A stretch of DNA of 64,000 nucleotides from Bdellovibrionales bacterium (GCA_965203275.1 OZ241865.1:864001-928000); one strand, 5' to 3'; shown: positions 4,993-58,222, counted from the stretch's first letter. Notes: generated from the sequence alone by a model not told the origin. Made by a program: numbers and translations.

Positions 4993-5855
4993 ACACTAAA
5001 AGTAAACCAGCCGTCATTTTCACTCAAAATGAACCACTGTTTCACTAAAAGTGGTCTGACCTCTGGTCACTTTTGGGTGATGACCACGACGGCTCACGCC
5101 GTCGATAAAATGGTCATCACCTCAAAAGCCTGACCACTTTTAGTAGGGAGGATCTCCTTGTCTCTTAACACCATGTTAAGGAAAAAGTTCTTTCTTACAC
5201 CTTTTGGCTGTCGCCGTCGATCAAAGGCTAACTGCCTAGAAAATCCATTTATTTTGAGTAGGAAGTTAGTTGTTTCACTCAAAATGAGCCACACCTCTGG
5301 CTCACTAAAAGTGGTCTGACCTCTGGTCACTTTTGGGTGATGACCACGACGGCTCACGCCGTCGATAAAATGCTCATCACCTCAAAAGCCTGACCACTTT
5401 TAGTAGGGAGGATCTCCTTGTCTCTTAACACCATGTTAAGGAAAAAGTTCTTTCTTACACCTTTTGGCTGTCGCCGTCGATCAAAGGCTAACTGCCTAGA
5501 AAATCCATTTATTTTGAGTAGGAAGTTAGTTGTTTCACTCAAAATGAGCCACACCTCTGGCTCACTAAAAGTGGTCTGACCTCTGGTCACTTTTGGGTGA
5601 TGACCACGACGGCTCACGCCGTCGATAAAATGGTCATCACCTCAAAAGCCTGACCACTTTTAGTAGGGAGGATCTCCTCGTCTCTTTACACGATGTTAAG
5701 GAAAAAGTTCTTTCTTACACCTTTTGGCTGTCGCCGTCGATCAAAGGCTAACTGCCTAGAAAATCCATTTATTTTGAGTAGGAAGTTAGTTGTTTCACTC
5801 AAAATGAGACACCTCTGGCTCACTAAAAGTGGTCTGACCTCTGGCTATTTTTGAG
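4993..5855. repeat. Cluster of ~145-nt structured repeats; 260-bp tandem unit x3 plus partial
   Basis: CACTAAAAGTGGTCTGACC recurs at 5043, 5303, 5563, 5821; units near-identical. Confidence 0.95.
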
Positions 5856-6139
5856 CATTTAATCAATAATTATAAAGGCTTGAAAGTGCTTAAAAGCTTA
5901 AAAAACATGTTTTATAGTTCTATTGCTTTGATATTTTCATAACTGCTTAACACCACAATACATTTGAAAAATATAGTAAAATCAATTATTTAATTATTGT
6001 TAAGCCCAAAAACTATGTTTTATTTAGATACATTAATGACTTCAAATCTAAAATTAGACTTTACTAATCAATAATTTTTAGATAAGATATAGATAGGCTA
6101 CAATATTATAAATAGTAATCAACTAACAGGAGGTTATTT

Positions 6140-6620
6140 GTGGATGAGATTAAATTAGTTGTCAAAAAACTTCTCAAATCTTATGCAAAAAATGACAGGG
6201 ATGGAGTAAAAATGCAATTTCAAAATTTAAAAAATATTTTGCAAAAACAAAAATTACACATTGTTGGTAGAGAAGATCAAGAAAACAGAGGTTACAATGA
6301 GCAAGAAAATAATAAAAGAATCTACAGAAAAGATGAAAACGATGGATGGACACGAACAGATGAAGGATGGACACGAAGAGATGAAGGATGGACACGAAGA
6401 GACATCTTGCCACCTGACAGGAGAAATTGGTTCATCCCAACAAGCAAAAAAGAATCTCGATGAAATTAGAGATGAAATTTTTGAATATATTTTTAATGAA
6501 AGCAAAGGACACAATCTTGAACAATTTAAGAATATATTACAGAAGCTATTAACAGTTTATGTAAAAAAACTGTGCAAAGAAAGTGCTTTAAAAAATATTA
6601 AAACTGTGTGTGTGTATTAA
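6140..6620 (+). CDS. Hypothetical protein(s): overlapping ORFs 6140-6463 and 6261-6620, possibly one frameshifted gene
   Basis: AGGAGG RBS before GTG at 6140; 21-bp repeat ~x3 at 6344-6402. Confidence 0.45.
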
Positions 6621-6623
6621 ACA

Positions 6624-7553
6624 TTAAATTGGAAGAGATAATCTGTTTGAATGAAGTGATAACTTTATAAATTCTCTCTGCAAAGTATCAGGTCTTATAG
6701 CCTCAATATAATGAGGATTTTTCTTTCCTAACTCTTTCGAAATTGTTTTCTTTTTTTTCTCCTCAAGATGATTCAATAGCATTTCAACAGTAATAGTTGC
6801 TCCGATACCAAAAACAATTGACCCACCTTTTGAAATATTAAAAAGATTCCTTGCTACATGATACCCAGCTATTCCTGCAAGTGGAGAGGCTGTTCCCCTC
6901 AACAAATCATAAGACTGTATCTTCCCATGATAAATACCATATCCAAGCCCACAAACTCCTAAAATAACCTGGAGTGGGTTAGCTGTTGCAAAACCAAGGC
7001 AAAGTGTGCTAGCTGTAACCCTCGATATAGCTTTAGGATCACCTGATCTTATTGCCGAAACAAGAAATAAAATATTAATACCTGAAGCAAGAAATTCCCC
7101 TGCATTGATACTATTCATATCCCTCATGCATTCTCGAATTTGTCCAGGAGTAATGATTCCACCTAAGGTTTCAGAAATCTCATAACTTAATCTCTCATAA
7201 CCTGGTTTGTTTAAAGTAAAAAGAGGAATACCTTCAGGAGTAACAAGCTCATTAAAGTGTGACTTGATGTATTCGAAAAAATCTACCGAACCTGTTCGGT
7301 CTTTAATAGCTTTATAGCTACCTGCTAATGTGTGAGAACCATCAAATGATCTGTGATATCCTCCTCCAATATGTGTTTTGCTGTAAGCCATGTCCATAAT
7401 TTTATCATATTGGCTTTGATTTTCTAAAAATTTAAATAAATTTTTATAAGTGTCTAAAAAAACAGCACTGGCAAATAAACTTGGATCTTTAAGACCTTGA
7501 AATGAATTCTTTTTTGCTTTATACAAGGTAAACCTCCCTATTCTACATACCAA
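6624..7553 (-). CDS. Hypothetical membrane protein
   Basis: 309-aa ORF abutting the upstream ORF; hydrophobic Gly-rich segments. Confidence 0.65.
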   Translation of the reverse strand: MVCRIGRFTLYKAKKNSFQGLKDPSLFASAVFLDTYKNLFKFLENQSQYDKIMDMAYSKTHIGGGYHRSFDGSHTLAGSYKAIKDRTGSVDFFEYIKSHFNELVTPEGIPLFTLNKPGYERLSYEISETLGGIITPGQIRECMRDMNSINAGEFLASGINILFLVSAIRSGDPKAISRVTASTLCLGFATANPLQVILGVCGLGYGIYHGKIQSYDLLRGTASPLAGIAGYHVARNLFNISKGGSIVFGIGATITVEMLLNHLEEKKKKTISKELGKKNPHYIEAIRPDTLQREFIKLSLHSNRLSLPI

Positions 7554-8689: not shown

Positions 8690-9520
8690 CCCTCAAAATG
8701 AGCCATACCTTTTTTTGCACTAAAAGTAAACTAGCCTCTGTTTCACTAAAAGTGGTCTAGCCTCTGGCTACTTTTGGACAATGACCGCAAAGGCTTTCGC
8801 CTTTGACAAAATGGTCATTGTCTCAAAAGCCTGACCACTTTTAGTAGGGAAGGATATCTTCGTTTCTTAACACCATGTTAAGGAAAACATCCCTTCTAAT
8901 GGTTAGCCCGAAGGCTACCGCCTTCTCAAAAGCTGGCAACCTCAAAAGTCCGTTTACTTTTAGTAGGAAGGATATCCTTGCTTTTTAACACGATGTTAGG
9001 GAAAAAGAGTTTCATTTGTAAGCCCGCTTGCTCCCAAAAAAGTTTTAGAAGCATATCTTGTTTCCCTAACATGGTGTAGAGGAATAAAAGGATCCTCCTC
9101 TACTCAAAATAAATGAATTTTCTAGGCAGTTAGCCTTTGATCGATGGCGATAGCCATCGGGCTAACTGCCAGAAAACATGCCAGAGGCATGATTTATTTT
9201 GAGTGAAATGTTAAGGAAAAAGAAATTCATTCGTAAATCCGCTTGCTCCCAAAAAAGTTTTAGAAGCATATCTTGTTTCCCTAACATGGTGTAGAGGAAT
9301 AAAAGGATCCTCCTCTACTCAAAATAAATGAATTTTCTAGGCAGTTAGCCTTTGATCGATGGCGATAGCCATCGGGCTAACTGCCAGAAAACATGCCAGA
9401 GGCATGATTTATTTTGAGTGAAATATTAAGGAAACAAGGCGTTCATCTGCTGGCAACCCAGTGTTGTTACATGGCAAGAGAAGCTTGCAGTCTGACCATT
9501 TAGTAGAGGAGAGTCTCTCG
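8690..9520. repeat. Cluster of structured repeats, including a 215-bp tandem duplication
   Basis: Full copies at ~8741-8885, ~9058-9208, ~9273-9423; GCTTGCTCCC at 9026 and 9241. Confidence 0.9.
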
Positions 9521-9615: not shown

Positions 9616-12546
9616 TTAAAAATTCACTTCATTCAATGAAGTCACCACATCAAAATCAACATGAACCTTCTTAAAATGATCTCGTCCACAATCTACCTTG
9701 TGTTTTTCTTTTAGACGTAGTTCTTCTGTTGTCGTGGTGTATTTTGTCTCTCTAATAAAATAAAGCTTTTCTTCTCTTTCAGTGACAAAAGCCCAATCTG
9801 GATTATAAGGACCAAAAGGTGTGTCCACTTTAAACCAATAAGGTAGCTTAACAAAAAGTTTGACATATTCATTGTTGTCTAAGTCTCTAGCAAATTGTTC
9901 TTCTATCCTGGAATCAAAAGCAATAGAATCATAAAGAGATTTGTCTTTATGTTTGAGTTTATAAAGATTTTTCATATAGCGAGTAATTCCTTTTTGAGCA
10001 TCCTCCTCAATTCGTTTCATCTCATAAATGCCATCTTTGATCTTCTTATATTGAAGGCCTTTTGCAATCAAGCCTTGTTGAGCATCACGAATGGCACTTA
10101 AAATATTTTCCATAAAAGGATAAGGATTTTTCATAAATTCTTCTAACCTATTTGATTGATGAAGAATATCAAACAGGGTCTTACGACTGATCTTTGTCTT
10201 CTTGTGAAGATAAGCTATCATATTTGGAATGCGAGATGGACGGATTGTTTTGTATTTAAGAGAGTGATCTGTTTGAGTTGTGTTGATACCTGCTCTTGTG
10301 ATTTCAATGTTTGCCTTTGTAGAGGCTATTTTAAGAGGATCAATGGATTTGATATTTTGGATTTCTTGCACAGCATTTTTGATTAATTTTTGTGTACTGA
10401 AAGAAATATAATAAAAAGTTTTTTGATTGATTCGCTCCCAAAGCTCTCTAAAATCCTCACGCAAATAAACTTCTTTATGAAACTGCACTGTTCTTTTTTT
10501 GTGTGCATTAATAATATGCTCTCCTCTTAAAATATATTTTCTCATTTCAGTTATAATTTGATCAGAGAAAACTTCATAAACAGGCTTGATTTTTAAAACA
10601 AAGTTTTCTTGATGTGGATTAAAAATATCTTGTATTTCTCCTACCTGATTAATATATCCATGATCTTTTAAATCTTGCCATATCTTTGCTGATTGAGCTT
10701 GTCCTATAGGCAGGTCACAACCCGCTGGAATGATCTGAGAAAAAGCATGTTTTTCAATCCTGCTAAGTATAATGCCTGTTGCGTCTTCATATTCTTTTTG
10801 TAAAGCTGTGGCGTATTCTCTATAACCTTCTGAAGCAGTAACTGTCAGACGATTCCAAGTTTCGTTACCTAGATGCATTCGCCGGCCTTTTTGATTCACA
10901 GGTAATCTCAAACCTCTACCAAGCTGTTGTCTACGCTCTATTTCAGAATAAACATCTCTTAAAGTGCAAATTTGAAAGACATTAGGATTATCCCATCCTT
11001 CTTTTAATGTGCTATGACTAAAAATAAATCGTAGAGGTTCTTTAGCATCTAATAGTTGTTCTTTATCACGCATAATTAAAGTGTATGTATCTCCGTCGTC
11101 TTTGGTGTTACCCCTTGTGTCTTTGACCATGCCTTTTTTATCTTTAGAAAAATACCCACCATGAATATCTTTTGTAGCAAAAGGGATTAAACCTTTATGT
11201 TGGATAGAAATTTCATTATAGCATTCTTCAAACCACTGACCTATTGGGCCTAATTGAGTTGTGCCATCTTCATTATAAACACGATAGTCAGCGACCTTAT
11301 CAACAAAAAACAAAGATAATACTTTTATACCTTGCTTTTGAAATATAATTTCTTTTTTGAGATGTTGTTGAATGGTTTCCCTCACCATAGCCTTCATCAA
11401 ATCTTGTTGATGAGGAGAGCCACCTATAGACTGCCCTTTGATCACTTTATACCCATTGCTTAAAGTTATTTCAGAGCGAGTATCTATATCCTTTATGATA
11501 AAACCATGGCGATAAACAAAATGTTTATTGGATTTTTTGTAAAGGTCATCATGTTGCCTGACCCATATTTGTTCTTTTTTTAAACTTTTTGCAGTTTTTT
11601 TATATATTTCAAGTTTTGCTTGAATATTATGACGACCCTTACCTGGTTTGCCTTCTAAATATCTCACATACCCTGTGACATAATCTTCGTCTTTATGGAC
11701 AGAGGCGACTTCAATTTTTTTCACTAGGTTTTGTTCAAAGGCTTCAATGGGTCCCAACTTATAAAGTAGGTTGTAAGGATTTTTGTGGGTTGCACTGTAA
11801 CGCAAAGTCAAAGCAGGGTTGAGTTGCTTTATAGCTTTTTGAGATTTAGGTGTGCTATCTACACTTTGAGGTTCATCTATAATCACAATAGGATGGGTAG
11901 ATTGGATAAACTCTATAGGACGTCCACCCATTCTATCGTTATCTACATAAATAATATTTCGAAGTTTTTTTATGTTTTCAGTTTCATTACCATCGGATAT
12001 ATCTTTTTGAAAAGCTTGAATGTTCATCACCATAATAGAAATATCATGATTATTTTGAAAAGTTCTTACTTTATGTAATTGTTTGGAATCATAAAGGTCA
12101 TATTCAAAAGGCACTTGATCATATTGACTTCTAAAATGCTCTTTTGTCATTTCAATGCTTTTGATCACACCTTCTCGAATGGCCACACTAGGGACCACAA
12201 CAATAAACTTCTTAAAACCATATTGTTTATTTAGCTCAAAGATAGTTCGTAAATAAACATAAGTTTTACCTGTACCCGTTTCCATCTCTATAGAAAAATG
12301 CCTTCCTTGAAGGGTATCAACTTGAGGGATGTTGTTTCTTTCTTGAATAAGACGAGTGTTTTTTAAAAATTGGCTATCTGTAAGAAGAACATTATTAGCC
12401 AGTCCTAACCCTTGTGAGGCAAAATCTAAATTACCTTTAACATCAAAACGTTGTTGCCCAAGAGCTTTTTGCCCATTAAAAAGATCAATGACAGCCTTTA
12501 TAGCTTTTTGTTGATGTTCCAGCTGGGGATCAAAAGTCCATTGCAT
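9616..12546 (-). CDS. res: Type III restriction-modification Res subunit
   Basis: METGTGKT, IIDEPQ, LKEGWDNPNVFQIC, QQLGRGLR, YNPDWA...FIRETK. Confidence 0.93.
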   Translation of the reverse strand: MQWTFDPQLEHQQKAIKAVIDLFNGQKALGQQRFDVKGNLDFASQGLGLANNVLLTDSQFLKNTRLIQERNNIPQVDTLQGRHFSIEMETGTGKTYVYLRTIFELNKQYGFKKFIVVVPSVAIREGVIKSIEMTKEHFRSQYDQVPFEYDLYDSKQLHKVRTFQNNHDISIMVMNIQAFQKDISDGNETENIKKLRNIIYVDNDRMGGRPIEFIQSTHPIVIIDEPQSVDSTPKSQKAIKQLNPALTLRYSATHKNPYNLLYKLGPIEAFEQNLVKKIEVASVHKDEDYVTGYVRYLEGKPGKGRHNIQAKLEIYKKTAKSLKKEQIWVRQHDDLYKKSNKHFVYRHGFIIKDIDTRSEITLSNGYKVIKGQSIGGSPHQQDLMKAMVRETIQQHLKKEIIFQKQGIKVLSLFFVDKVADYRVYNEDGTTQLGPIGQWFEECYNEISIQHKGLIPFATKDIHGGYFSKDKKGMVKDTRGNTKDDGDTYTLIMRDKEQLLDAKEPLRFIFSHSTLKEGWDNPNVFQICTLRDVYSEIERRQQLGRGLRLPVNQKGRRMHLGNETWNRLTVTASEGYREYATALQKEYEDATGIILSRIEKHAFSQIIPAGCDLPIGQAQSAKIWQDLKDHGYINQVGEIQDIFNPHQENFVLKIKPVYEVFSDQIITEMRKYILRGEHIINAHKKRTVQFHKEVYLREDFRELWERINQKTFYYISFSTQKLIKNAVQEIQNIKSIDPLKIASTKANIEITRAGINTTQTDHSLKYKTIRPSRIPNMIAYLHKKTKISRKTLFDILHQSNRLEEFMKNPYPFMENILSAIRDAQQGLIAKGLQYKKIKDGIYEMKRIEEDAQKGITRYMKNLYKLKHKDKSLYDSIAFDSRIEEQFARDLDNNEYVKLFVKLPYWFKVDTPFGPYNPDWAFVTEREEKLYFIRETKYTTTTEELRLKEKHKVDCGRDHFKKVHVDFDVVTSLNEVNF

Positions 12547-12561
12547 TGTTTAAGTTTCCCT

Positions 12562-23964: not shown

Positions 23965-24038
23965 CCTGAGTTTGATAGCCTGCAAAAATAAAGTTGAGTA
24001 AAACCCTGAGTTTGATAGCCTGCAAAAATAAAGTTGAG
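23965..24038. repeat. 34-bp direct repeat x2 (period 40)
   Basis: CCTGAGTTTGATAGCCTGCAAAAATAAAGTTGAG at 23965 and 24005. Confidence 0.9.
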
Positions 24039-24202
24039 CAGTAGGTTATGAGTCGAAAGAGATTTTGTGCCACTAGGTTTTTGTTTTTGTGGCAGAATTT
24101 TAGAAAATCTATGTTGTTTCACTAAAAGTGGCCAGAGGTCAATTCATTTTAAGTTAAAAAAAAGGAAACCAGTTTTGTAGATTGTCCAATAAACAAGAAT
24201 GT

Positions 24203-24418
24203 TTAACCTAAGTTATTTAGTTTTTTCTGTATTTCTCGTATTTTGTTCTCTGTAGAGTCTGTGATTTTTGCAATGGTCGAAATATCCATGTTATTTTTCA
24301 ACATATTTAAGATGACACTTTGTTTTTCTTCCTGTCGCCCTTCCTGTCGCCCTTTTTGCAACCCTTTTTGCAATCCTTCCTGTAATAATCTTTCTCTTGT
24401 GATCTGTAGTGGTGGCAT
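24203..24418 (-). CDS. Small C-terminal Rpn product (Rpn_S-like), 71 aa
   Basis: AAGGAGG upstream of in-frame ATG (MPPLQITRERLLQEG...). Confidence 0.65.
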   Translation of the reverse strand: MPPLQITRERLLQEGLQKGLQKGRQEGRQEEKQSVILNMLKNNMDISTIAKITDSTENKIREIQKKLNNLG

Positions 24419-24500
24419 GGTTCTTTCCTCCTTTAATATATGTTTTTCTTCTATTTTTTGCAATACTTTCCATGTAAAACTAGGATCATAAATCCTGTCT

Positions 24501-24872
24501 GTTTCACTCAAAGTGAACTGGCCTCTGGCCACTTTTGGACAATGACCGCAAAGGCTTTCGCCTTTGACAAAATGGTCATTGTCTCAAAAGCCTGTTCACT
24601 TTGAGTAGGAAGGATCCCTTCCTCTTTTGACACGATGTTAAGGAAACAAGCTGTCTCTTAACATAATGTTAAGGGAAAAAGTTTTATTTGTAAACTCGCT
24701 TGCCCTTAAGGCAATAAAAAACTTTTTCCTTAACATGGTGTAAAGGAATAAAAAGATCCTCCTCTACTTAAAATAAATGGATTTTCTAGGTAGTTAGCCT
24801 TTGATCGACGGCGGTAGCCGTCGGGCTAACTGCCAGAAAACATGCCAGAGGCATGATTTATTTTGAGTGAAA
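24501..24872. repeat. Inverted doublet of the structured repeat
   Basis: GTTTCACTCAAA...TTTTGAGTGAAAC termini, two opposed full copies. Confidence 0.9.
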
Positions 24873-25392: not shown

Positions 25393-26050
25393 TTTCATTA
25401 AAAATAGTCTAGCCTCTGTTTCACTCAAAGTAAACTGACCTCTGGTCACTTTTGGACAATGACCGCAAAGGCTTTCGCCTTTGACAAAATAGGCAACACC
25501 TAAAAAATCCGTTCATTTCAAGTAAGAAAGGATATCCTTGCCTCTTGACATCATGTTAAGGAAAATATCCTTCTAATAACAGTTAGCCCGACGGCTGTCG
25601 CCGTCGATCAAAGGCTGATTGCCTCAAAAGTCCGTTTACTTTTAGTAGGGAGGATCTCTTCCTTTTTTAACATCATGTTAAGGAAAAAATTCCTTCATCA
25701 CTACTGGCAACCTAGAAAGCCTGACCACTTTTAGTAGAAAGGATCTCTTCGTCTCTTGACTACATGTTAGGGAAAAAGTTCTTTCTGATGCCGGGTTGCC
25801 GGATCCCAGATCCCGGATGAAGATCATGTTAGGGAAAAAAGATGTTTGTTTTTTTGGAATTTTTTCTAAAAGGTAGGGAAATTGGGTTTGAAAATTGGAA
25901 ATCAAGTGATTTCAGCTAGTTTGGTTCACTAAAAATAAACCAGCTAGAAGCTGGTTTATTTTTAGTGAGACAAATGCGGTCATTGCCCAAAAGTAGCCAG
26001 AGGCTAGACCACTTTTAGTGAAACAGAGGTCAGTTCATTTTGAGTGAAAA
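25393..26050. repeat. Cluster of structured repeats and fragments
   Basis: Repeated TTTCACT ends and ATGTTAAGG motifs; GATGCCGGGTTGCC module at ~25788. Confidence 0.9.
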
Positions 26051-26131
26051 AAGCGTGAGTCGGGTTTAAGATAAACTCCAAAAACATAACATCAATAAGC
26101 CTGATGATAATTTTGATGTAGAACGTAAAGG

Positions 26132-26896: not shown

Positions 26897-26913
26897 TCCA
26901 TTAATTCAATTAT

Positions 26914-26945: not shown

Positions 26946-26953
26946 TTTTATCT

Positions 26954-28491: not shown

Positions 28492-29166
28492 ATGACAGAG
28501 AGAGTTTTATTACAATTAACAATAGATGCTATTTTCAAAGCTTTTTTTGAAAAGAGAGAAGACCTTTTAATTTCACTGGTAGAGAATTTTGTACCTTTGC
28601 CTAAAGGTTCTGTGATAGAGGGTGTTTCATTATTAAACACAGAGCTTCTTCCCGATAAAGTTCCAGACGAATACAAATCCTTTACTTTAGATTTGCGTGT
28701 GAAATTAAGAAGACGGATCAGAGGCGTTCTTCAAAATACAGAGATTGTCCATGTAGAAGTTCAGACGACAAGTCAAAAGTTTTTTACAGATCGGATATTA
28801 GTTTATGCTTCTAGGGCTTATTCTGGTCAGATAAAGAAAGGCGAAGATTTTAATCAATTACTTCCTGTGTATTCACTTGTTTTTACAACAACTAATTTAA
28901 AAGAATTTGCAGGGATAAAGGATTACTATCATATCTGCAATATCCGTCGGACAAAACCACCAGAAGTGATTATGTCTCGTGGATTGTGTTTTGTCATTGT
29001 AGAATTAGGCAAGTTTCAGTCAAGTTTGCATGAATTATTTGACAAAAAGGCAGATTGGTGTTATCTTTTAAAGAACTCTGGTAATATGGATTTAAAGGAG
29101 TATACCAATTTTCAGAATAAAAGGGATCCTTCTTCTGGGATCTGGCAACCCGGCATCAGGTCCTAA
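28492..29166 (+). CDS. Rpn-family PD-(D/E)XK nuclease, N-terminal part, truncated by repeat insertion
   Basis: DAIFKAFF, LDLRV, VHVEVQ, DRILVYASRAYSGQ, VIVELGKF. Confidence 0.88.
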   Translation: MTERVLLQLTIDAIFKAFFEKREDLLISLVENFVPLPKGSVIEGVSLLNTELLPDKVPDEYKSFTLDLRVKLRRRIRGVLQNTEIVHVEVQTTSQKFFTDRILVYASRAYSGQIKKGEDFNQLLPVYSLVFTTTNLKEFAGIKDYYHICNIRRTKPPEVIMSRGLCFVIVELGKFQSSLHELFDKKADWCYLLKNSGNMDLKEYTNFQNKRDPSSGIWQPGIRS

Positions 29167-29318
29167 AACTGAACTTTTTCCTTAACATTGTGTTAAAAAA
29201 GGAAAGGATCCTTCCTACTAAAAATAAACGGATTTTTGAGGTATTGCTCTTTTTGGACAGCGTAAGCTGTCAGAGCAATGCCCAAAAACAGCCAGAGGCT
29301 GGTTTATTTTTAGTGAGA
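29122..29318 (+). repeat. Structured repeat plus GGATCTGGCAACCCGGCATC module inserted in Rpn gene
   Basis: Helix ACTAAAAATAAAC (29217-29229) / GTTTATTTTTAGT (29302-29314); flanking direct repeat AGAATAAAAGG. Confidence 0.9.
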
Positions 29319-29333
29319 ATAAAAGGAGGCGTT

Positions 29334-29654: not shown

Positions 29655-29823
29655 TTTGCCTTTTTTAATTATAAGATTTGCTGTTATGGATTTAAAGGAG
29701 TATACCAATTTTCAAAATAAAGGGATCTGGCAACCCGGCATCAGGTACTAAAACTGAACTTTTTCCTTAACATTGTGTTAAAAAAGGAAAGGATCCTTCC
29801 TACTAAAAATAAACGGATTTTTG

Positions 29824-30546
29824 GAGCTTGTCCCTGATATCGGTGAAAATAGACGGCTCATAAATTAGTTTTTAATTGTTTTTTCTTTTTGTCAATAATA
29901 ATTTTTTTTAAACTTTGTTCTAATTGTTCTAAATCTTTAAATCCTTTAATGCTTTTGAAATGTTTTTCTGCTTCCAATAGACTCACAGCAGACCATCTTA
30001 AAACTTGATCTGAAGAAGAACTCCAAAGTAGCACAAAATATGTTGAAAGAAAATCTCAATATTTCATTGATCTCTACAATGACAGGTTTATCCAAAGATG
30101 ACATTCTCAAGCTGAAAAAATAATTTGCCTTTTTTAATTATAAGATTTGCTGTTATGGATTTAAAGGAGTATACCAATTTTCAAAATAAAGGGATCTGGC
30201 AACCCGGCATCAGGTACTAAAACTGAACTTGACTGCTTAACACGAGGCTTCCTAACCTGCAACTTTTGACCACCTGCAAGTATGCTACCTTTATCACTAC
30301 CAGCTCTATGAAAATGGAAAGTATCCTTCCTACTAAACGACCATGAGGCAATCAGCCTTTGATCGACGGCAAATGAACTTCTTGTGAAATGAATGACTAT
30401 TTTTGGTACACTTCATAATGGCTCCTTTCTTTTTATTTTTAAAAGTTAATTGTTAATAAAATTTGGTTGGCTGAAATATGCCAACCAGGAGCCTTCTATC
30501 TTAACATCTTCTCTAAGAAAAATTCACCGAATTATAGGACATGCTC
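29824..30546 (-). mobile_element. IS256-family remnant with both IRs and 8-bp target duplication; interior deleted and scrambled
   Basis: IRs GAGCTTGTCC...CGGTGAA / TTCACCG...GGACATGCTC; TSD GATTTTTG at 29816-29823 and 30547-30554; fragments RAGSDKGSILAGGQKLQVRKPRV and QVLRWSAVSLLEAEKHFKSIKGFKDL. Confidence 0.8.
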
Positions 30547-30734
30547 GATTTTTGAGGCAATCAGCCTTTGATCGACGGCAAAGAACTTCTTGTTTCCTTA
30601 ACATCCTGTTAAGAAACGAAGAGATCCTTTCTACTAAAAGTGGTCAGGCTTTCTAGGTTGCCAGCAATTGAGAAGGCGAAAGCCTTCGGCTGGCAACCAG
30701 AAAGTGGCCAGAGGCCAGACCACTTTTAGTGAAA
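30547..30734 (+). repeat. Structured repeat; clean full copy at 30591-30734
   Basis: ACTAAAAGTGGTC (30633-30645) pairs with GACCACTTTTAGT (30718-30730). Confidence 0.92.
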
Positions 30735-31129: not shown

Positions 31130-31880
31130 GGGATCCTTCTTCTGGGATCTGGCAACCCGGCATCAGGTCCTAAAACTGAACTTTTTCCTTAACATTTCAC
31201 TCAAAATGAACTGGCCTCTGGCCACTTTTGAGCTGGATCTTCAATTTATTTCTTAAATTTCAAAATCATTGCCCTGAGACCAGACTCTTTCCCATTCATA
31301 TCATTAGCTTGTACAAACCTTCATCTTATTTGGCTTTGAAATTCTGTGCTTGCAAATAAAAAATCTAGATGCGAATGGTAATGGACAATGACTGCAAAGG
31401 CTTTCGCCTTTGACAAAATGGTCATCGCCTCAAAAATATATGCATTTTGAGTAGGGCGAATCTCCTTGCTTCTTGACATCATGTTAGGGAAACAAGATAT
31501 GTTTCTAAAATATTTTTGGGGAGCAAGCGGGTCTGCGGAAAATCTCCAGCCTGCCCTCGCCTCCCACTCATAATATTCATTTTTTGAGAGTTACGCAGAA
31601 TCTAAAAAAATAAAAAAACAAAAAGAAAGGAACTTTTTCCTTAACATTGTGTTAAAAAAGGAAAGGATCCTTCCTACTAAAAATAAACGGATTTTTGAGG
31701 CAATCAGCCTTTGATCGACGGCAAATGAACTTCTTGTTTCCTTAACATCCTGTTAAGAAACGAAGAGATCCTTTCTACTAAAAGTGGTCAGGCTTTCTAG
31801 GTTGCCAGCATTTGAGAAGGCGAATAGCCTTCGGCTGGCAACCAGAAAGTGACCAGAGGTCAGACCACTTTTAGTGAAAT
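31130..31880. repeat. Cluster of structured repeats and second hairpin-family fragment
   Basis: Full copy ~31735-31879; fragments at 31195, 31383, 31633; 31520-31630 matches 44942-45055. Confidence 0.88.
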
Positions 31881-43565: not shown

Positions 43566-44240
43566 ATGACAGAGAGAATTTTATTACAATTAACAATAGA
43601 TGCTATTTTCAAAGCTTTTTTTGAAAAGAGAGAAGACCTTTTAATTTCACTGGTAGAGAATTTTGTGCCTTTGCCTAAGGGTTCTGTGATAGAGGGTGTT
43701 TCATTATTAAACACAGAGCTTCTTCCCGATAAAGTTCCAGACGAATACAAATCCTTTACTTTAGATTTGCGTGTAAAATTAAGAAGACGGATCAGAGGTG
43801 TTCTCCAAAATACAGAGATTGTCCATGTAGAAGTTCAGACGACAAGTCAAAAGTTTTTTACAGATCGGATATTAGTTTATGCTTCTAGGGCTTATTCTGG
43901 TCAGATAAAGAAAGGCGAAGATTTTAATAAATTACTTCCTGTGTATTCACTTGTTTTTACGACAGCTAATTTAAAAGAATTTGCAGGGATAAAGGATTAC
44001 TATCATATCTGCAATATCCGTCGGACAAAACCACCAGAAGTGATTATGTCTCGTGGATTGTGTTTTGTCATTGTAGAATTAGGCAAGTTTCAGTCAAGTT
44101 TGCATGAATTATTTGACAAAAAGGCAGATTGGTGTTATCTTTTAAAGAACTCTGGTAATATGGATTTAAAGGAGTATACCAATTTTCAGAATAAAAGGGA
44201 TCCTTCTTCTGGGATCTGGCAACCCGGCATCAGGTCCTAA
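43566..44240 (+). CDS. Rpn-family nuclease N-terminal part, near-identical copy of 28492-29166
   Basis: Three amino-acid differences seen; same truncating insertion. Confidence 0.88.
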   Translation: MTERILLQLTIDAIFKAFFEKREDLLISLVENFVPLPKGSVIEGVSLLNTELLPDKVPDEYKSFTLDLRVKLRRRIRGVLQNTEIVHVEVQTTSQKFFTDRILVYASRAYSGQIKKGEDFNKLLPVYSLVFTTANLKEFAGIKDYYHICNIRRTKPPEVIMSRGLCFVIVELGKFQSSLHELFDKKADWCYLLKNSGNMDLKEYTNFQNKRDPSSGIWQPGIRS

Positions 44241-44392
44241 AACTGAACTTTTTCCTTAACATTGTGTTAAAAAAGGAAAGGATCCTTCCTACTAAAAATA
44301 AACGGATTTTTGAGGTATTGCTCTTTTTGGACAGCGTAAGCTGTCAGAGCAATGCCCAAAAACAGCCAGAGGCTGGTTTATTTTTAGTGAGA
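44197..44392 (+). repeat. Structured repeat inserted in Rpn gene
   Basis: Matches 29122-29318. Confidence 0.9.
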
Positions 44393-44407
44393 ATAAAAGG
44401 AGGCGTT

Positions 44408-44806
44408 ATGGCAGAGGCAGCAAAGCATTTATGGATATTATCAAAAGATGAGACATTACAGGAACTTGCAATGGTGAAAGAGAGAGACAGAAAAGATCAA
44501 GCAGCCAGAGAAGATGATGCTTATGAGGAAGGGATGAAGAAAGGTCGTAAGGAAGGGATGGAGAAAGGTCGTAAGGAAGGGATGGAAAAAGGGATGGAAA
44601 AAGGGATGGAGAAAGGAATAGAAAAAGGGATGGAAAAAGGGATGGAGAAAGGAATGGAAAAAGGGATGGAAAAAGGGATGGAGAAAGGTCGTAAGAAAGG
44701 AATGGAAAAAGTAGCACTAAATATGTTGAAAGAAAATCTCAATATTTCATTGATCTCTACAATGACAGGTTTATCCAAAGATGACATTCTCAAGCTGAAA
44801 AAATAA
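44408..44806 (+). CDS. Small C-terminal Rpn product (Rpn_S-like) with expanded GMEK repeats
   Basis: AAGGAGG RBS, MAEAAKHLW, 12-bp repeats. Confidence 0.8.
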   Translation: MAEAAKHLWILSKDETLQELAMVKERDRKDQAAREDDAYEEGMKKGRKEGMEKGRKEGMEKGMEKGMEKGIEKGMEKGMEKGMEKGMEKGMEKGRKKGMEKVALNMLKENLNISLISTMTGLSKDDILKLKK

Positions 44807-44809
44807 ATT

Positions 44810-45527
44810 ACCCAAAAGTGGCCAGAGGATTATCCCTAACCCCACCCACCACCCTTTGATTCTGCTTTCCCATTTGTATGTTTTTCATGAGTGAAATGCG
44901 AAGGCAGGCTTCCGAAGTCCTCAACCTTCGCTTGCTTTTGGAGAGCAAGCGGGTCTGCGGAAGATCTCCAGCCTGCATCCGCATTTCACTCATAATATTT
45001 ATATTTTTTGAAAGTTACGCAGAATCTGAGAAAAAATAAAAAAACAAAAAGAAAGGAACTTTTTCCTTAACATTTCACTCAAAGTGAACTGACCTCTGGT
45101 CACTTTCTGGTTGCCAGCCGAAGGCTATCGCCTTCTCAAATGCTGACAACCTAGAAAGCTTGACCACTTTTAGTAATAAGGATCCTTTTATTCCTCTACA
45201 CCATGTTAGGGAAACAAGATATGCTTCTAACTTTTTGTGGAGCAAACGGGATGCAAGAAAGGAACTTTTTCCTTAACATGGAGTTAAGGGACGAAGAGAT
45301 CCTCCTTACTAAAAGTGGTCAGGCTTTCTAGGCAATGACCATTTTGCCAATGGCGAAATGTCAAAGTGAAATAAATATCTTGTTTCCTTAACATGGGGTT
45401 AAGAGACGAAGGGATCCTCTCTACTAAAAGTGGTCAGGCTTTCTAGGCAATGACCATTTTGCCAATGGCGAAAGCCATTGCGGTCATTGCCAGAAAGTAG
45501 CCAGAGGCTAGACCACTTTTAGTGAGA
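44810..45527. repeat. Cluster: long second-family hairpin (44858-45026) plus structured repeats
   Basis: Full copies ~45073-45215 and ~45381-45527; ATGAGTGAAATGCG/CGCATTTCACTCAT helix. Confidence 0.9.
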
Positions 45528-51386: not shown

Positions 51387-52345
51387 TTTTCACTAAAAGT
51401 GGTCTAGCCTCTGGCTACTTTCTGGTTGCCAGCCGAAGGCTACCGCCTTCTTATCTTTTTCACTAAAAATAAACCAGCCTCTGGCTGTTTTTGGACATTG
51501 CTCTGACAGCTATCGCTGTCCAAAAAGAGCAATGCCGCAAAAAACTGCTCATTTTGAGTAGGGGAGGATATCTTCGTTTCTTAACACCATGTTAAGGGTT
51601 TGTTTCACTCAAAATAAATCATGCCTCTGGCATGTTTTCTGGCAGTTAGCCCGACGACTGTCGTCATCGATTAAAGGCTAACTGCCTAGAAAATTCATTT
51701 ATTTTGAGTAGGGAGGATCTCCTCGTTTTTTGACTACATGTTAAGGAAACAAGATATTCGCTTTATCCTTGCCTGTCTGCCGGATGCCGGGTTGCCAGAC
51801 CCGGATCCCGGATTAACACGATGTTAAGGAAAAAGATTTCCTTCTGATGTTTGCTCTGACAGCTATCGCTGTCCAAAAAGAGCAATGTCTCAAAAGTCCG
51901 TTTACTTTTAGTAGAAAGGATCCTCTTGCTTTTTAACACAATGTTAAGGAAAAAGAGTTTTATTCACAAACTGCTTGCTCTTGAGGTAATAAAAGAAATT
52001 TTTCCTTAACATGGTGTAGAGGAATAAAAGGATCCTCCTCTACTCAAAATGAACAAGCTTTTGAGGTAGCCAGCCTTTTACGACGGCGTGAGCCGTCGGG
52101 CTGGCTACCCAAAAGTGGCCAGAGGCCAGTTCATTTTGAGTGAAAAAAATTGAGGACTTCGGAAGGCTCCCGTTGCCCCATCCTCAAGTAAAAACAAAAT
52201 GGAAAAGCAGAATCGAAGGGCGGTGGGGGGGTTAGGGATAATCCGTTTACTTTTAGTAAGAAGGATCCATTCGTTCTCTGACATGATGTTAAGGAAACAA
52301 GATTTTCTTCTGATGCCTGACTGCCAGATCCCGGATCCCGGATAA
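51387..52345. repeat. Large cluster of structured repeats
   Basis: Full copies ~51457-51598, ~51602-51750, ~51998-52145; other modules at 51776, 52150, 52311. Confidence 0.92.
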
Positions 52346-56514: not shown

Positions 56515-57550
56515 TTTTCACTAAAAATAAACCAGCCTCTGTTTCACTCAAAGTGAACTGGCCTCTGGCCACTTTTGGACAATGACCGCAAAGGCTTTCG
56601 CCTTTGACAAAATGGTCATTGCCTCAAAAGCCTGTTCACTTTGAGTAAGGAGGATCCCTTCGTTTTTTTACACAATGTTAAGGAAAATATCCTTCTAATA
56701 ACAGTTAGCCCGACGACTTTCGTCCTCGATCAAAAGCTGGCTACCTCAAAAGCTTGTTCAATTTTAGGAAGGAGGATATCCTCATTTCTTAACACAATGT
56801 TAAGGAGTTTGTTTCACTCAAAGTGAACTGGCCTCTGGCCACTTTTGGACAATGACCGCAAAGGCTTTCGCCTTTGACAAAATGGTCATTGCCTCAAAAG
56901 CCTGTTCACTTTGAGTAAGGAGGATCCCTTCGTTTTTTTACACAATGTTAAGGAAAATATCCTTCTAATAACAGTTAGCCCGACGACTTTCGTCCTCGAT
57001 CAAAAGCTGGCTACCTCAAAAGCTTGTTCAATTTTAGGAAGGAGGATATCCTCATTTCTTAACACAATGTTAAGGAGTTTGTTTCACTCAAAGTGAACTG
57101 GCCTCTGGCCACTTTTGGACAATGACCGCAAAGGCTTTCGCCTTTGACAAAATGGTCATTGCCTCAAAAGCCTGTTCACTTTGAGTAAGGAGGATCCCTT
57201 CGTTTTTTTACACAATGTTAAGGAAAATATCCTTCTAATAACAGTTAGCCCGACGACTTTCGTCCTCGATCAAAAGCTGGCTACCTCAAAAGCTTGTTCA
57301 ATTTTAGGAAGGAGGATATCCTCATTTCTTAACACAATGTTAAGGAGTTTGTTTCACTCAAAGTGAACTGGCCTCTGGCCACTTTTGGACAATGACCGCA
57401 AAGGCTTTCGCCTTTGACAAAATGGTCATTGTCTCAAAAGCCTGTTCACTTTGAGTAGGGAGGATCCTTTCGTTTTTTAACACAATGTTAAGGAAAAAGT
57501 TCCTTCATCACTTTCACTAAAAGTAAACTGACCTCTGGTCATTTTTGAGT
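56515..57550. repeat. Structured repeat array; 270-bp tandem unit x3 plus partial fourth
   Basis: GTTTCACTCAAAGTGAAC at 56541, 56811, 57081, 57351. Confidence 0.95.
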
Positions 57551-57583
57551 TAGCAGTGTCTTTTTGTTGGATATAGTAAAAGA

Positions 57584-58003
57584 TTAAGTGGAAGGTTTAG
57601 ATAGCAACTCAAATATCTTATCAAGACGTCGATTGGTATCTTTATTTTGTGCGGTTAAGTCTTTATAGTTTTGGTCAATCTTCTGCTCAAGTGCTTTAGT
57701 ATTATTATCAACTTTCTGCTCAAGTTTATCAACTTTATGCTCAAGTGCCTTAGTATTATTATCAATTTTCTGGTCAAGTGCTTTAATATTATTATCAATT
57801 TTCTGATCAAGTGCCTTAATGTCGTCCTTCATCTCTTTAATCTGTGAGGGTATATGATTACTGACTTGTTCTTTAATATCCTTCTTAAAATCTTTGAATT
57901 GTTCCTTGAACTGTTCTTTAAAAGGTTCAATATAAAACCTCACTATGCCAATTAAGCTGACAAAGAAAACTATGAAAGTTACGATTATTTGCAAAAACTC
58001 CAT
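57584..58003 (-). CDS. Small membrane-anchored coiled-coil repeat protein
   Basis: N-terminal TM helix; KALDQKIDNN-type repeats; GAGG RBS. Confidence 0.75.
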   Translation of the reverse strand: MEFLQIIVTFIVFFVSLIGIVRFYIEPFKEQFKEQFKDFKKDIKEQVSNHIPSQIKEMKDDIKALDQKIDNNIKALDQKIDNNTKALEHKVDKLEQKVDNNTKALEQKIDQNYKDLTAQNKDTNRRLDKIFELLSKPST

Positions 58004-58159
58004 ATTTTAATACCTCTATTTTATATCATTATACCCTATTAACATTAAAAGTCAACCGCCTACATTAAACTATAACAACATGCAACATCTTAACTGACTA
58101 AAATAAACAGCTTTTTTGATACGAAACTTTGTTGGCTTGCTAACTACCTAAAGAATCTA

Positions 58160-58222
58160 TACATTTTAAGCAAGGATGTCCTCATTTCTTAACACAATGT
58201 TAAGGAAAAAGAGTTTCTTCTG
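58160..58222. repeat. Fragment of the structured repeat
   Basis: AAGGATGTCCTCATTTCTTAACACAATGTTAAGGAAAAAG. Confidence 0.8.

What the first reader, a model, noticed from the sequence alone, without database searches (positions are those of the whole stretch)
4993..58222. Abundant ~145-nt repeat family with a conserved, covarying fold
Seen: about 20 full copies plus many fragments (hand count). On the strand reading TTTCCTTAACAT...AGTGAAA, clean copies share a 5' hairpin (TTAAC-ATnnn-GTTAA), a GGATCC-like linker and a three-way junction. P1 pairs: ACTAAAAGTGGTC/GACCACTTTTAGT (30633), ACTCAAAATGAAC/GTTCATTTTGAGT (52042), ACTCAAAATAAAT/ATTTATTTTGAGT (9102), ACTAAAAATAAAC/GTTTATTTTTAGT (29217). 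After a 3-purine junction, P2a is CTTTCT/AGAAAG, CTTTTG/CAAAAG or TTTTCT/AGAAAA, then a bulged A. P2b is GGTTGCCAGC, GGCAATGACC, GGCAGTTAGCC, GGTAGCCAGCC or GGTGATGACC, each with its complement. An asymmetric loop leads to P2c capped by C-GNNA-G (GAAA, GTGA, GTAA, GATA, GGTA). P3 is TGGCC, TGACC, TAGCC, CAGCC or CATGCC around an invariant AGA loop. Inference: selection acts on structure, as in a structured ncRNA/ribozyme or an ssDNA recombination/transposition substrate. I do not recognise it as a named family.
Basis: partly seen in the sequence, partly recalled or inferred. Interest (0 to 1): 0.92.

Follow-up and report, generated by a model that had tools for sequence, protein, structure and literature searches.

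The report
Abundant three-armed hairpin DNA repeat
A roughly 145-base non-coding unit that folds into a three-armed hairpin is copied about 1,300 times in this small bacterial genome; it behaves like a selfish DNA repeat that lands in hairpin loops, including its own, and the enzyme that copies it is still unknown.

Summary
The window has 43 pieces of the family, 22 of them full, covering 7.4% of it. The genome has 1,291 pieces, 737 full, covering 5.8%. The three-way-junction fold covaries strongly: 96.7% of cells pair against 80.9% in shuffles, and 28 of 41 pairs show compensatory change across three genomes. The 5' "hairpin" is a conserved sequence and does not covary. Rfam has no match.

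The family behaves as mobile or selfish DNA. Paralogous filled and empty sites exist, two of the filled ones in this window. The 3' end is precise, the 5' leader varies, and there is no regular target duplication. About a third of 3' ends abut fixed loop sites in other copies.

This genome has no Y1/HUH transposase, reverse transcriptase or TnpB. My new lead was a link to Rpn-type nuclease genes: strong here (14 of 14), not replicated in the sister species (1 of 18). A link to small "23S IVS protein" genes partly replicates. A top-strand G:T excess was also not replicated.

Earlier agents of this scan already reported this family from other windows of the same genome.

The parts
5040..5183 (-). 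full copy (profile positions m1-141), first of an array
5205..5265 (-). fragment m34-92
5302..5443 (-). full copy
5465..5525 (-). fragment m34-92
5562..5703 (-). full copy
5725..5798 (-). fragment m15-92
5820..5857 (-). 3' fragment m102-139
8742..8885 (-). full copy
8899..9003 (-). 5' fragment m1-104
9062..9207 (+). full copy; its 3' end abuts an inverted head (GTGAA|ATGTTAAGGAAA)
9277..9422 (+). full copy; its 3' end abuts an inverted head
24503..24645 (-). full copy, downstream of a truncated Rpn-type gene
24726..24871 (+). full copy overlapping the 3' end of the truncated Transposase_31 ORF 24858-25370(-)
25419..25563 (-). full copy, innermost of a nested stack, followed by an orphan tail that starts at the P3 loop (AGAGGC...)
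25581..25685 (-). 5' fragment m1-102 (host cut in the 3' arm of P2b)
25692..25774 (-). 5' fragment m1-83 (host cut after the 5' arm of P2b); preceded by an orphan head and a GGGATC-repeat leader
25978..26022 (+). 3' fragment m96-140
29178..29317 (+). full copy. With its 53-nt GGGATC/GGCAACCCGGCATCAG leader (about 29125-29177) it interrupts a PDDEXK_2 (Rpn-type) gene: a filled site
29763..29828 (+). 5' fragment m1-66, cut by the end of an IS256-like remnant
30594..30733 (+). full copy (seed), ending 14 nt before the ATG of a small RpnS-like ORF (30748-31062)
31196..31235 (-). 3' part m101-140 of a copy split by the 153-bp unit B
31393..31491 (-). 5' part m1-96 of the same split copy
31637..31724 (+). 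5' fragment m1-86
31738..31878 (+). full copy
44252..44391 (+). full copy interrupting the second PDDEXK_2 gene copy (43566-44240 plus 44264-44806): a filled site
45074..45213 (-). full copy with a chimeric P1 (5' arm of one allele, 3' arm of another)
45269..45357 (+). 5' fragment m1-87
45384..45526 (+). full copy
51389..51452 (-). 3' fragment m77-140
51459..51597 (-). full copy joined head-to-tail to the previous one
51604..51748 (-). full copy preceded by a GGGATC-repeat leader and an orphan head
51846..51951 (-). 5' fragment m1-105
52002..52145 (+). full copy
52239..52296 (-). 5' fragment m1-58
56543..57553 (-). tandem array with a 270-bp period. Full copies at 56543-56685, 56813-56955, 57083-57225 and 57353-57495 alternate with 5' fragments m2-102 at 56703-56806, 56973-57076 and 57243-57346. 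A 3' fragment lies at 57513-57553
58138..58207 (-). 5' fragment m1-73, last piece in the window
28492..29166 (+). PDDEXK_2 nuclease-domain ORF, cut short by the insertion
43566..44240 (+). second copy of the same interrupted PDDEXK_2 gene

Best explanation
The repeat is a non-autonomous, selfish DNA element of the general REP/MITE kind. The core is about 140 nt (TTTCCTTAACAT...AGTGAAAC), often preceded by a variable leader.

Its activity depends on folding one DNA strand, or a cruciform, into a three-way junction. Helices P1, P2a-c and P3 are free to vary as long as they pair. The unpaired letters stay fixed as contacts for a protein: the head TTTCCTTAACAT, GGATCC, CTACT, a bulged A, the AGA loop and the tail GTGAAA.

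New copies are laid down with a precise 3' end and a ragged 5' side, without a regular target duplication. They often land in or beside the loop of a short hairpin, including two fixed loops of older copies. Copies then exchange segments by recombination, which gives the mix-and-match alleles.

Shown: abundance, fold, covariation, filled and empty sites, junction classes, restriction to three related genomes, and absence of the usual enzymes.

Inferred: the single-strand intermediate, the loop targeting, and a break-and-copy or nick-primed mode of insertion.

Unknown: the enzyme.
For: Abundance and spread:
- 1,291 pieces on both strands, spread all round the genome.
- Found in only 3 of 151 genomes sampled from the order, all in one family.
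- No copy lies in the 20 kb around the syntenic dnaG-rpoD genes of the sister species, whereas this window has copies on both sides of those genes.

Fold:
- Covariation in three genomes.
- The unpaired motifs are invariant across those genomes.

Mobility:
- 5 of 14 PDDEXK_2 paralogs carry the element at one site, two of them in this window, while at least 3 paralogs are uninterrupted.
- 5 of 14 IVS-protein paralogs are interrupted at one site.
- Further filled and empty pairs were found.

Junctions:
- In those pairs the 3' junction sits at AGTGAAA(C). The 5' side carries 15-53 extra nt, and the target loses 0-17 nt.
- Of 938 intact 3' ends, 146 abut a P3-loop tail (..AGAGG), 69 an inverted head and 74 a direct head.
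- Three of six independent outside targets, and both self-targets, lie in or at hairpin loops.

Not a gene-linked RNA: no orientation bias relative to flanking genes (209 against 182).

Recombination: linkage between the two arms of a helix falls with their distance (0.91 for P2c down to 0.68 for P1). There are 139 allele combinations among 548 copies.
Against: - No mobilising enzyme was found. This genome has no Y1_Tnp and no RVT_1 match, and its only PF07282 (TnpB/Cas12 Zn-ribbon) match lies in a 1,365-aa Cas12-like frame. It has only two tyrosine recombinases, and the third carrier genome has none. The ends of the IS256-like IS are unrelated to the element's ends.
- The excess of G:T over A:C on the top strand is 51 against 24 haplotypes here (p = 0.002). 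It is not seen in the sister species sample (35 against 30). The folded strand is therefore not settled, and both strands fold equally well.
- The filled and empty pairs are paralogs, not alleles. Some 'empty' sites may be deletions; one clearly is a footprint (c295/c349).
- Loop targeting rests on few independent sites.
- Nearest-neighbour distances are broad: 1-12 differences for most copies, and only 86 exact duplicates. Current activity is therefore not shown.
- No expression data exist, so an added RNA role is not excluded.
Confidence: 0.6

Rival explanations
1. The element is the partner of the Rpn-type PD-(D/E)XK nucleases (PDDEXK_2 and Transposase_31 genes, about 30 in this genome). 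The nuclease would nick hairpin loops. The 3'-OH would then prime copying of a folded element strand by a host polymerase, with template switching, giving precise 3' and ragged 5' junctions and mosaic copies.
For: - In this genome 14 of 14 PDDEXK_2 genes and 11 of 16 Transposase_31 genes have an element within 150 bp after the stop. Background is 231 of 1,546 ORFs.
- Among 30 multi-copy gene families, only the Rpn-type family (61 of 80) and the IVS-protein family (22 of 23) show this. Families of 106, 34, 32 and 32 members, the IS256-like transposase (1 of 9) and a resolvase (0 of 7) are near background.
- All 3 carrier genomes have PDDEXK_2, against 5 of 148 non-carriers.
- Passages read in PMC5350276: RpnA leaves 3'-OH ends that prime a polymerase, and its authors propose joining by template switching.
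Against: - Not replicated in the sister species. There 1 of 18 Transposase_31 genes and 0 of 3 intact PDDEXK_2 genes have an element after the stop, against a background of 5 of 131.
- In the third carrier, elements lie between ordinary genes and the PDDEXK_2 locus has none.
- A non-carrier genome (G022) has 14 PDDEXK_2 copies and no small flanking repeat.
- Passages read in PMC10327210: rpn genes lack terminal repeats and target duplications, the authors think a transposase role highly unlikely, and they show a toxin-antitoxin and anti-phage role.
- The carrier genomes are kin, so the co-occurrence counts are not independent.
Confidence: 0.1
2. The element is a structured RNA: a small RNA gene, an mRNA-stabilising or RNase III-processed 3'/5' UTR module, or a ribozyme. 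Selection would act on the RNA fold, and its spread would be secondary.
For: - Elaborate fold with a three-way junction, a bulged A and a GNNA cap on P2c.
- More G:T than A:C on one strand in this genome.
- Several copies end immediately before a Shine-Dalgarno sequence and start codon, for example 30733 before the ORF at 30748.
Against: - No bias of orientation towards flanking genes.
- Only 454 of 737 caps are GNRA, while 719 are GNNA. From my own knowledge, GNNA also suits a DNA loop closed by a sheared G-A pair.
- No conserved promoter lies upstream, since the leader varies. No T-run follows P1 (direct reading).
- No Rfam match.
- Hundreds of broken and nested copies.
- The G:T excess is absent in the sister species sample.
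Confidence: 0.12
3. The element spreads through an RNA copy, like a SINE, by target-primed reverse transcription. That would explain the fixed 3' end, the variable 5' leader (read-through from upstream) and small target deletions.
For: - Precise 3' junction and ragged 5' junction.
- 3' junctions at fixed loop sites.
- 197 fragments end at the 3' terminus with varied starts.
Against: - No reverse transcriptase domain was found by six-frame search in this genome or in the third carrier (0 matches each).
- 5' fragments (289) are as many as 3' fragments (197, plus at least 70 short tails). This fits the splitting of hosts, not 5' truncation of inserts.
Confidence: 0.07
4. The elements are attC-like sites of an integron-like cassette system, recombined as folded single strands by a tyrosine recombinase. 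Small genes such as the IVS-protein gene would be cassettes.
For: - Structure is conserved, not sequence, with a bulged base.
- The head CC(T/C)TAAC resembles the RYYYAAC box. That motif is recalled, not taken from a call.
- 12 of 14 IVS-protein genes are followed by an element in the same orientation within about 100 bp.
Against: - Copies are scattered on both strands over the whole chromosome, often in gene-free tandem arrays.
- This genome has only two tyrosine recombinases, and the third carrier has none.
- Junctions fall in the loops, not at a G|TT-type crossover.
- The gene-element arrangement is tail-to-tail in several loci of the sister species.
Confidence: 0.05

Closest known systems
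REP / BIME / REPIN elements with RAYT (Y1 HUH) transposases (PMC3116915, PMC3337134; I saw search listing and abstracts only)
   Same: Short, very abundant, palindromic intergenic repeats that behave as non-autonomous mobile DNA. Copies on both strands, clusters and tandem arrangements, persistence within a narrow lineage.
   Different: - Here the fold is a branched structure of about 100 nt with five covarying helices, not a single short hairpin or a hairpin pair.
- This genome has no Y1/RAYT gene.
- The one Y1 gene of the sister species is an ordinary IS200 with unrelated ends.
- Copy number (about 1,300 pieces, 5.8% of 2.57 Mb) is high for the genome size.
IS200/IS605-derived hairpin elements (PATEs) moved as single strands. 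This is recalled knowledge; no paper was read.
   Same: No target duplication. Ends are defined by folded hairpins, not inverted repeats. A possible strand bias. The left flank often resembles the element's own 3' terminus: GAAC, GATC or GAAAC before the head, GAAAC at the tail.
   Different: No TnpA or TnpB. The 5' junction is ragged with target loss, unlike the exact cuts of TnpA. Insertion is into hairpin loops, not beside a fixed tetranucleotide.
Integron attC sites (PMC2727003, PMC5027507; abstracts seen)
   Same: Recognised by structure, not sequence. Unpaired or extrahelical bases are conserved. Strand selectivity has been proposed. Often found directly behind a small gene.
   Different: No integron integrase and no array beside an attI site. 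Copies are dispersed genome-wide. The fold is a three-way junction. Junctions lie in loops.
Hairpin intervening sequences of 23S rRNA that carry a PF05635 'IVS protein' gene. This is recalled knowledge; the family name comes from Pfam.
   Same: A small four-helix-bundle-type gene of the same Pfam family sits next to or inside hairpin-forming inserted DNA. It has 14 copies here, 13 of them with an element within 150 bp after the stop. In the sister species the figure is 7 of 18, against a background of 5 of 131.
   Different: The elements here are not in rRNA as far as I looked. I did not examine the rRNA operons. PF05635 is in 58 of 151 genomes of the order, most without the element. The gene-element arrangement differs between the two species.
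TIR-bearing MITEs of DDE transposons
   Same: Size, abundance, non-coding nature and intergenic location.
   Different: No regular target duplication. The only multi-copy DDE transposase found (IS256-like, 8-bp duplications) has unrelated ends. The element's two termini share only GTTTC/GAAAC plus a few letters (direct reading).

Membership tests
REP/REPIN-RAYT | A RAYT (Y1 HUH, PF01797-type) gene in the genome, usually flanked by the repeats | tested here: not met
   0 PF01797 matches in G000 and G004. The 1 match in G001 is an IS200-like gene whose flanks do not match the element model.
REP/REPIN-RAYT | Short imperfect palindrome (about 20-40 nt), or two of them in inverted orientation | tested here: not met
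   The unit is about 140 nt with a three-way junction of five helices.
IS200/IS605 PATE | TnpA (Y1) and/or TnpB present; exact insertion next to a fixed tetra- or pentanucleotide | tested here: not met
   No Y1. The only PF07282 match is a 1,365-aa Cas12-like frame. 5' junctions are ragged.
Integron attC / CALIN | Integron-type tyrosine recombinase, or cassette arrays of gene plus site in one orientation | tested here: not met
   2 PF00589 genes in G000 and none in carrier G004. Copies lie on both strands genome-wide, and many arrays hold no genes.
Integron attC / CALIN | Structure conserved while sequence varies, with conserved unpaired bases | tested here: met
DDE-type MITE | Terminal inverted repeats matching an IS in the genome, and a fixed-length target duplication | tested here: not met
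   The IS256-like ends GAGCATGTCC.../...GGACAAGCTC are unrelated to the element's ends. No regular duplication in the filled and empty pairs.
Any Rfam 15 RNA family | Covariance-model match at the gathering score | tested here: not met
   Only a tRNA matches in the window. At E <= 10 on 30400-32000 there are only chance-level hairpin matches, far below gathering scores.
SINE-like retroposon | A reverse transcriptase in the genome | tested here: not met
   0 PF00078 matches in G000 and G004.
Rpn-nuclease-associated element (hypothetical) | Association of the element with rpn genes in every carrier genome | tested here: not met
   G000: 14 of 14 and 11 of 16. G001: 2 of 5 and 1 of 18, against a background of 5 of 131. 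G004: no link.
Structured ncRNA / ribozyme | A transcript with defined ends; catalytic or regulatory activity | not testable with these tools
   No RNA run was listed for this DNA.

The most novel reading that the evidence does not exclude
The element would be a transposase-free mobile DNA that spreads by nick-primed copying. An unidentified structure-specific nuclease would open the loop of a DNA hairpin: the element's own AGA loop, its head loop, or a terminator-like hairpin. The Rpn-type PD-(D/E)XK nucleases, or a partner of the Avd-like four-helix 'IVS protein', are the candidates in view. The exposed 3'-OH would then be extended on a folded single-stranded copy of the element, starting exactly at its GTGAAAC tail. 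This is a DNA-level analogue of target-primed reverse transcription. Template switches between copies would produce the mix-and-match helices.
Probability: 0.12. Interest if true: 0.9.

Novelty: new variant of a known kind. Interest (0 to 1): 0.62.

Why it matters
Structured repeats filling about 6% of a 2.6-Mb bacterial genome are rare. This family differs from described ones in four ways:
- an unusually elaborate three-way-junction fold with heavy covariation;
- self-targeting of hairpin loops;
- junctions that do not look like the work of any known transposase class;
- none of the usual enzymes in the genome (HUH, DDE with matching ends, RT, integron integrase).

If the copying route can be found, it may reveal a new way of moving DNA, and a structure-guided insertion activity. 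Even as plain selfish DNA, the family gives about 650 distinct natural variants of one fold. That is a large data set for studying how paired regions evolve under recombination.

Tried and rejected
- **Rfam.** Gathering-score search of the whole window and an E <= 10 search on 30400-32000 gave nothing relevant.
- **Sequencing runs.** No RNA holder was listed. I laid contigs of four DNA runs from four studies on 24000-33999. Short-read contigs break at the repeats, and the joints listed are between repeated pieces, so I could call no clean insertion polymorphism.
- **Rpn nucleases as the mobiliser.** The association is strong in this genome but was not replicated in G001 or G004. G022 has 14 PDDEXK_2 copies without the element.
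- **IVS-protein gene plus element as a fixed autonomous unit.** The arrangement is regular in G000 (12 of 14 in the same orientation) but differs in G001, where it is often tail-to-tail and only 7 of 18 genes are associated. The gene family is in 58 of 151 genomes of the order.
- **Y1 transposase of G001 as the missing partner.** It is an ordinary IS200 with other hairpins.
- **IS256-like transposase as the partner.** Its ends are unrelated.
- **Top-strand-only folding.** The G:T excess in G000 was not seen in the G001 sample.
- **Target duplication.** A 10-nt direct repeat (GAATAAAAGG) flanks the insert in the PDDEXK_2 genes. The other filled and empty pairs show none.
- **Orthologous empty sites.** The dnaG-rpoD comparison with G001 shows no element in 20 kb. 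The neighbouring genes are not syntenic, so exact empty sites could not be read.
- **Literature.** I searched for a prior description with these terms: intervening sequence protein / four helix bundle / repeat / mobile; Rpn / YhgA; Bdellovibrionota / sponge / symbiont / repeat; REPIN / RAYT; attC. The listings showed no description of this family. The library is limited to open-access papers and preprints.

Full report
**Observation**

The window holds 43 non-overlapping pieces of one repeat family between 5040 and 58207. Of these, 22 are full-length (about 140-146 nt) and 21 are fragments, together 4,747 nt or 7.4% of the window.

The window lies in a single-contig genome of 2.57 Mb. A profile built from the window copies finds 1,864 raw matches in that genome. 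Many are opposite-strand echoes of the palindromic part. After removing overlaps, 1,291 pieces remain, 737 of them full. They cover 149,467 nt (5.8%), on both strands (380 + and 357 - among full copies) and in every 100-kb bin.

Earlier notes of this scan on other windows of the same genome describe the same family, with similar counts. They call the organism an uncultured Bdellovibrio-like bacterium. I did not test that taxonomy.

**Fold and covariation**

The seed copy (30594-30736) folds at -67.4 kcal/mol as RNA, with z = -8.5. Its complement folds equally well. With DNA parameters the two strands give -44.9 and -43.0 kcal/mol.

An alignment of 31 copies from three genomes gives a consensus with a long closing helix P1, a composite arm P2a-P2b-P2c and a short arm P3:
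- 41 pairs, 28 of them with compensatory changes.
- 96.7% of cells paired, against 80.9% in 500 column shuffles (none reaches the observed value).
- 35-48% paired when the partner is slid by 1-3 columns.

On 651 distinct full copies of this genome, most of the 37 pairs show 2-4 Watson-Crick types with over 90% pairing. A sample of 57 distinct copies of the sister species gives 38 pairs, 26 of them with two or more Watson-Crick types. These controls do not correct for relatedness; I did not run R-scape.

The unpaired parts are nearly invariant, also across genomes:
- the head TTTCCTTAACAT
- GGATCC
- CTACT
- a bulged A (700 of 737 copies)
- the AGA loop of P3 (717 of 737)
- the tail AGTGAAA

The cap of P2c is GNNA in 719 of 737 copies but GNRA in only 454.

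Its 5' arm never varies, and the central position of its 3' arm pairs in only 389 of 737 copies.

**Not a described RNA family, and not tied to genes as an RNA would be**

Rfam gives only a tRNA at gathering score, and only chance-level hairpin matches at E <= 10. In co-directional intergenic regions, 209 full copies have the orientation of the genes and 182 the opposite (p = 0.19). The sequence upstream of the head varies, so there is no conserved promoter. No RNA run was listed for this DNA.

**Distribution**

A covariance model finds the element in 3 of 151 genomes sampled from the order:
- this genome (G000);
- the only other species of the genus (G001);
- one of two species of another genus of the same family (G004, few copies).

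RpoD is 75% identical between G000 and G001. The syntenic dnaG-rpoD stretch of G001 has no element in 20 kb, whereas this window has copies on both sides of those genes.

**Evidence for mobility**

*First case: PDDEXK_2 genes.* The PDDEXK_2 (Rpn-type) gene has 14 paralogs. Five are cut short at the same point, with an element 12 nt after the new stop. Two of these are in this window (28492-29654 and 43566-44806).

At least three paralogs are uninterrupted. They read straight through ...CCAATTTTCAAAACAAGGGAGGTATTATGGCAG.... The insert is about 196 nt: a 53-nt leader of GGGATC repeats and GGCAACCCGGCATCAG, then the core. Here it is flanked by GAATAAAAGG on both sides.

*Second case: IVS-protein genes.* Five of 14 paralogs of a small PF05635 'IVS protein' gene, all outside the window, are interrupted at one site (CTCTAA^GAGA). 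The insert is a 19-nt leader plus a core ending in AGTGAAAC. There is no duplication, and 2-4 target letters are lost.

*Third case: flank search.* Searching both flanks of each cluster separately found further paralogous filled and empty pairs. In these the 3' junction is always at AGTGAAA(C), the 5' side carries 15-20 extra letters, and the target loses 0-17 letters. One 'empty' site is clearly a deletion footprint, so not all are ancestral.

*Fourth case: self-targeting.* Of 938 pieces with an intact 3' end:
- 146 are followed at once by an orphan tail that begins in the P3 loop (..AGAGG);
- 69 by an inverted head (GTGAA|ATGTTAAGG);
- 74 by a direct head within 9 nt;
- 609 by other sequence;
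- 40 lacked a recognisable AGTGA.

The window contributes 7, 3, 4 and 13 to the first four classes. With a stricter pattern, 70 of 731 full copies have such a P3-loop tail. In 17 of those 70, the matching 5' arm of the host's P1 lies 61-162 nt upstream. Host positions of about 103-116 are missing at these joints.

The two self-targets are hairpin loops. So are the targets of the c41/c127/c496 paralog group, the IVS-protein site and probably c229. Sites c444, c198 and c303 are not clearly in loops. The sample is small.

**Recombination among copies**

Each helix has 3-14 perfectly paired alleles. Alleles of different helices are partly linked (normalised mutual information 0.24-0.70, against 0.05-0.12 when shuffled). 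The two arms of one helix are more tightly linked. That linkage falls with the distance between the arms:

| Helix | Arm-to-arm linkage |
|---|---|
| P2c | 0.91 |
| P3 | 0.88 |
| P2b | 0.80 |
| P2a | 0.76 |
| P1 | 0.68 |

Among 548 copies built from major alleles there are 139 combinations. Chimeric copies exist in the window: 45074-45213 has the 5' arm of one P1 allele and the 3' arm of another.

Nearest-neighbour distances among full copies are mostly 1-12 differences, with 86 exact duplicates. The family is therefore diverse, not one recent burst.

**Which strand folds**

In this genome, single non-Watson-Crick pairs are G:T on the strand that reads TTTCC...GTGAAA in 51 distinct helix haplotypes. 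They are A:C in 24 (p = 0.002; by copies 166 against 40). In the G001 sample the counts are 35 and 30. I therefore treat strand-specific folding as possible, not shown.

**Search for the enzyme**

| Pfam family or gene | Result |
|---|---|
| PF01797 (Y1/HUH) | 0 in G000, 1 in G001, 0 in G004. The G001 gene is an ordinary IS200 whose hairpin ends do not resemble the element |
| PF00078 (RT) | 0 in G000, 3 in G001, 0 in G004 |
| PF07282 (TnpB/Cas12 Zn-ribbon) | One match in a 1,365-aa Cas12-like frame |
| PF00589 (tyrosine recombinase) | 2 in G000, 2 in G001, 0 in G004 |
| IS256-like Mutator-family IS | 9 ORFs; 8-bp duplications; ends unrelated to the element; at background for adjacency (1 of 9) |
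| Resolvase family | 0 of 7 adjacent to an element |

**New lead from this window: Rpn-type nuclease genes**

In G000, 14 of 14 PDDEXK_2 genes and 11 of 16 Transposase_31 genes have an element within 150 bp after the stop. The background is 231 of 1,546 ORFs of at least 150 aa.

A control with all multi-copy gene families shows this is not a general property of repeated genes. Only the Rpn-type family (61 of 80, counting its C-terminal pieces) and the IVS-protein family (22 of 23) stand out. Families of 106, 34, 32 and 32 members have 28, 3, 2 and 3.

The link fails replication:
- In G001 the background is 5 of 131. Transposase_31 gives 1 of 18. PDDEXK_2 gives 2 of 5, and both of those are interrupted genes.
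- In G004 the elements lie between ordinary genes (NifU-type, HhH-GPD glycosylase). The PDDEXK_2 locus has none.
- PDDEXK_2 occurs in 8 of 151 genomes of the order. One of them, G022, has 14 copies, each a 1.0-1.2-kb repeat unit without small flanking repeats.

Passages I read in PMC10327210 state that rpn genes lack terminal repeats and target duplications and are unlikely to be transposases. The same paper says they encode a toxin with an internally translated antitoxin, RpnS. Passages in PMC5350276 report a non-specific endonuclease that leaves polymerase-extendable 3'-OH ends. I keep the Rpn idea only as a minor rival.

**The IVS-protein link**

In G000, 13 of 14 genes have an element within 150 bp after the stop. 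In 12 of 14 it is in the same orientation and starts at its head, 4-104 nt after the stop or across it. The gene sits inside the GGGATC-repeat leader of the element.

In G001 the figure is 7 of 18, against a background of 5 of 131. Several of those loci are tail-to-tail, and four have the element across or just before the end of a shortened reading frame (71-141 aa). The gene family is in 58 of 151 genomes of the order, most without the element. The tie is real in two species, but its meaning is open.

**Verdict**

The best reading is a new, unusually elaborate family of selfish structured DNA repeats. It is related in kind to REP/REPIN, to hairpin-ended IS200/IS605 derivatives and, in its structure-not-sequence logic, to attC sites. 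It fails the defining tests of each. The copying enzyme is not identified.

The junction pattern (exact 3' end, ragged 5' side, loop targets, mosaic copies) suggests a break- or nick-primed copying route, not a classical transposase. That is inference.

Noticed in passing
window 28492-29654 and 43566-44806; also 30748-31062: In uninterrupted paralogs, the PDDEXK_2 (Rpn-type) reading frame contains an internal Shine-Dalgarno sequence plus ATG (AAGGGAGGTATTATGGCAG) ahead of a C-terminal part with Yae1_N-like four-residue repeats. This matches the RpnL/RpnS 'gene within a gene' described in PMC10327210. The element has inserted exactly between the nuclease domain and this internal start. The toxin-like part is cut short, while the small RpnS-like ORF keeps its own start. 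ORF 30748-31062 is such a small ORF on its own, directly behind an element.
   Followed up: partly
window 31232-31380 (-); G000 467088-468460: A second, unrelated 153-bp unit (CATTACCATTCGC...GATCCAGCT) sits at one fixed point of the element, between P2b and the 3' arm of P2a. It does so in at least 11 copies with different helix alleles, one of them in this window. The genome has 26 copies, including a 9-copy head-to-tail array. Its nature is unknown.
   Followed up: partly
window 29822-30546: Both ends of an IS256-like (Mutator-family) insertion sequence lie in reverse orientation only about 725 bp apart. Intact copies carry a 411-aa (1.24-kb) transposase ORF, so this one is an internally deleted remnant. 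It cuts an element fragment at 29828. The genome has 9 ORFs of this transposase, and the IS makes 8-bp target duplications. Two copies sit inside elements.
   Followed up: partly
window about 25790-25830, 29712-29750, 51780-51830: A leader module precedes many copies: a variable number of GGGATC(C/T)GG repeats followed by GGCAACCCGGCATCAG. Outside the window, it encloses the small PF05635 gene with its own promoter-like and terminator-like sequences.
   Followed up: partly
window 9616-14519 (-): A type III restriction-modification pair: a res-type helicase-endonuclease of 976 aa and an N6/N4 DNA methylase of 577 aa.
   Followed up: no
G000 genome-wide: The genome is unusually rich in multi-copy gene families. 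Examples: 106 members of an unannotated roughly 280-aa family; 34 with an N-terminal methylation (pilin-type) motif; two families of 32 coiled-coil, apolipoprotein-like small proteins; 8 ankyrin-repeat proteins.
   Followed up: no
G022 (another family of the order), e.g. C5:21879-22553: 14 near-identical PDDEXK_2 genes are dispersed as 1.0-1.2-kb repeat units, with no element of this family and no small flanking repeat.
   Followed up: partly
window 30026-30385: Contigs of three runs from three studies skip 203 nt (30027-30229) and 73 nt (30312-30384) of this junk-rich stretch. The second skipped piece covers an element-like fragment. The flanks are repeated, so I could not tell strain differences from assembly effects.
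   Followed up: no
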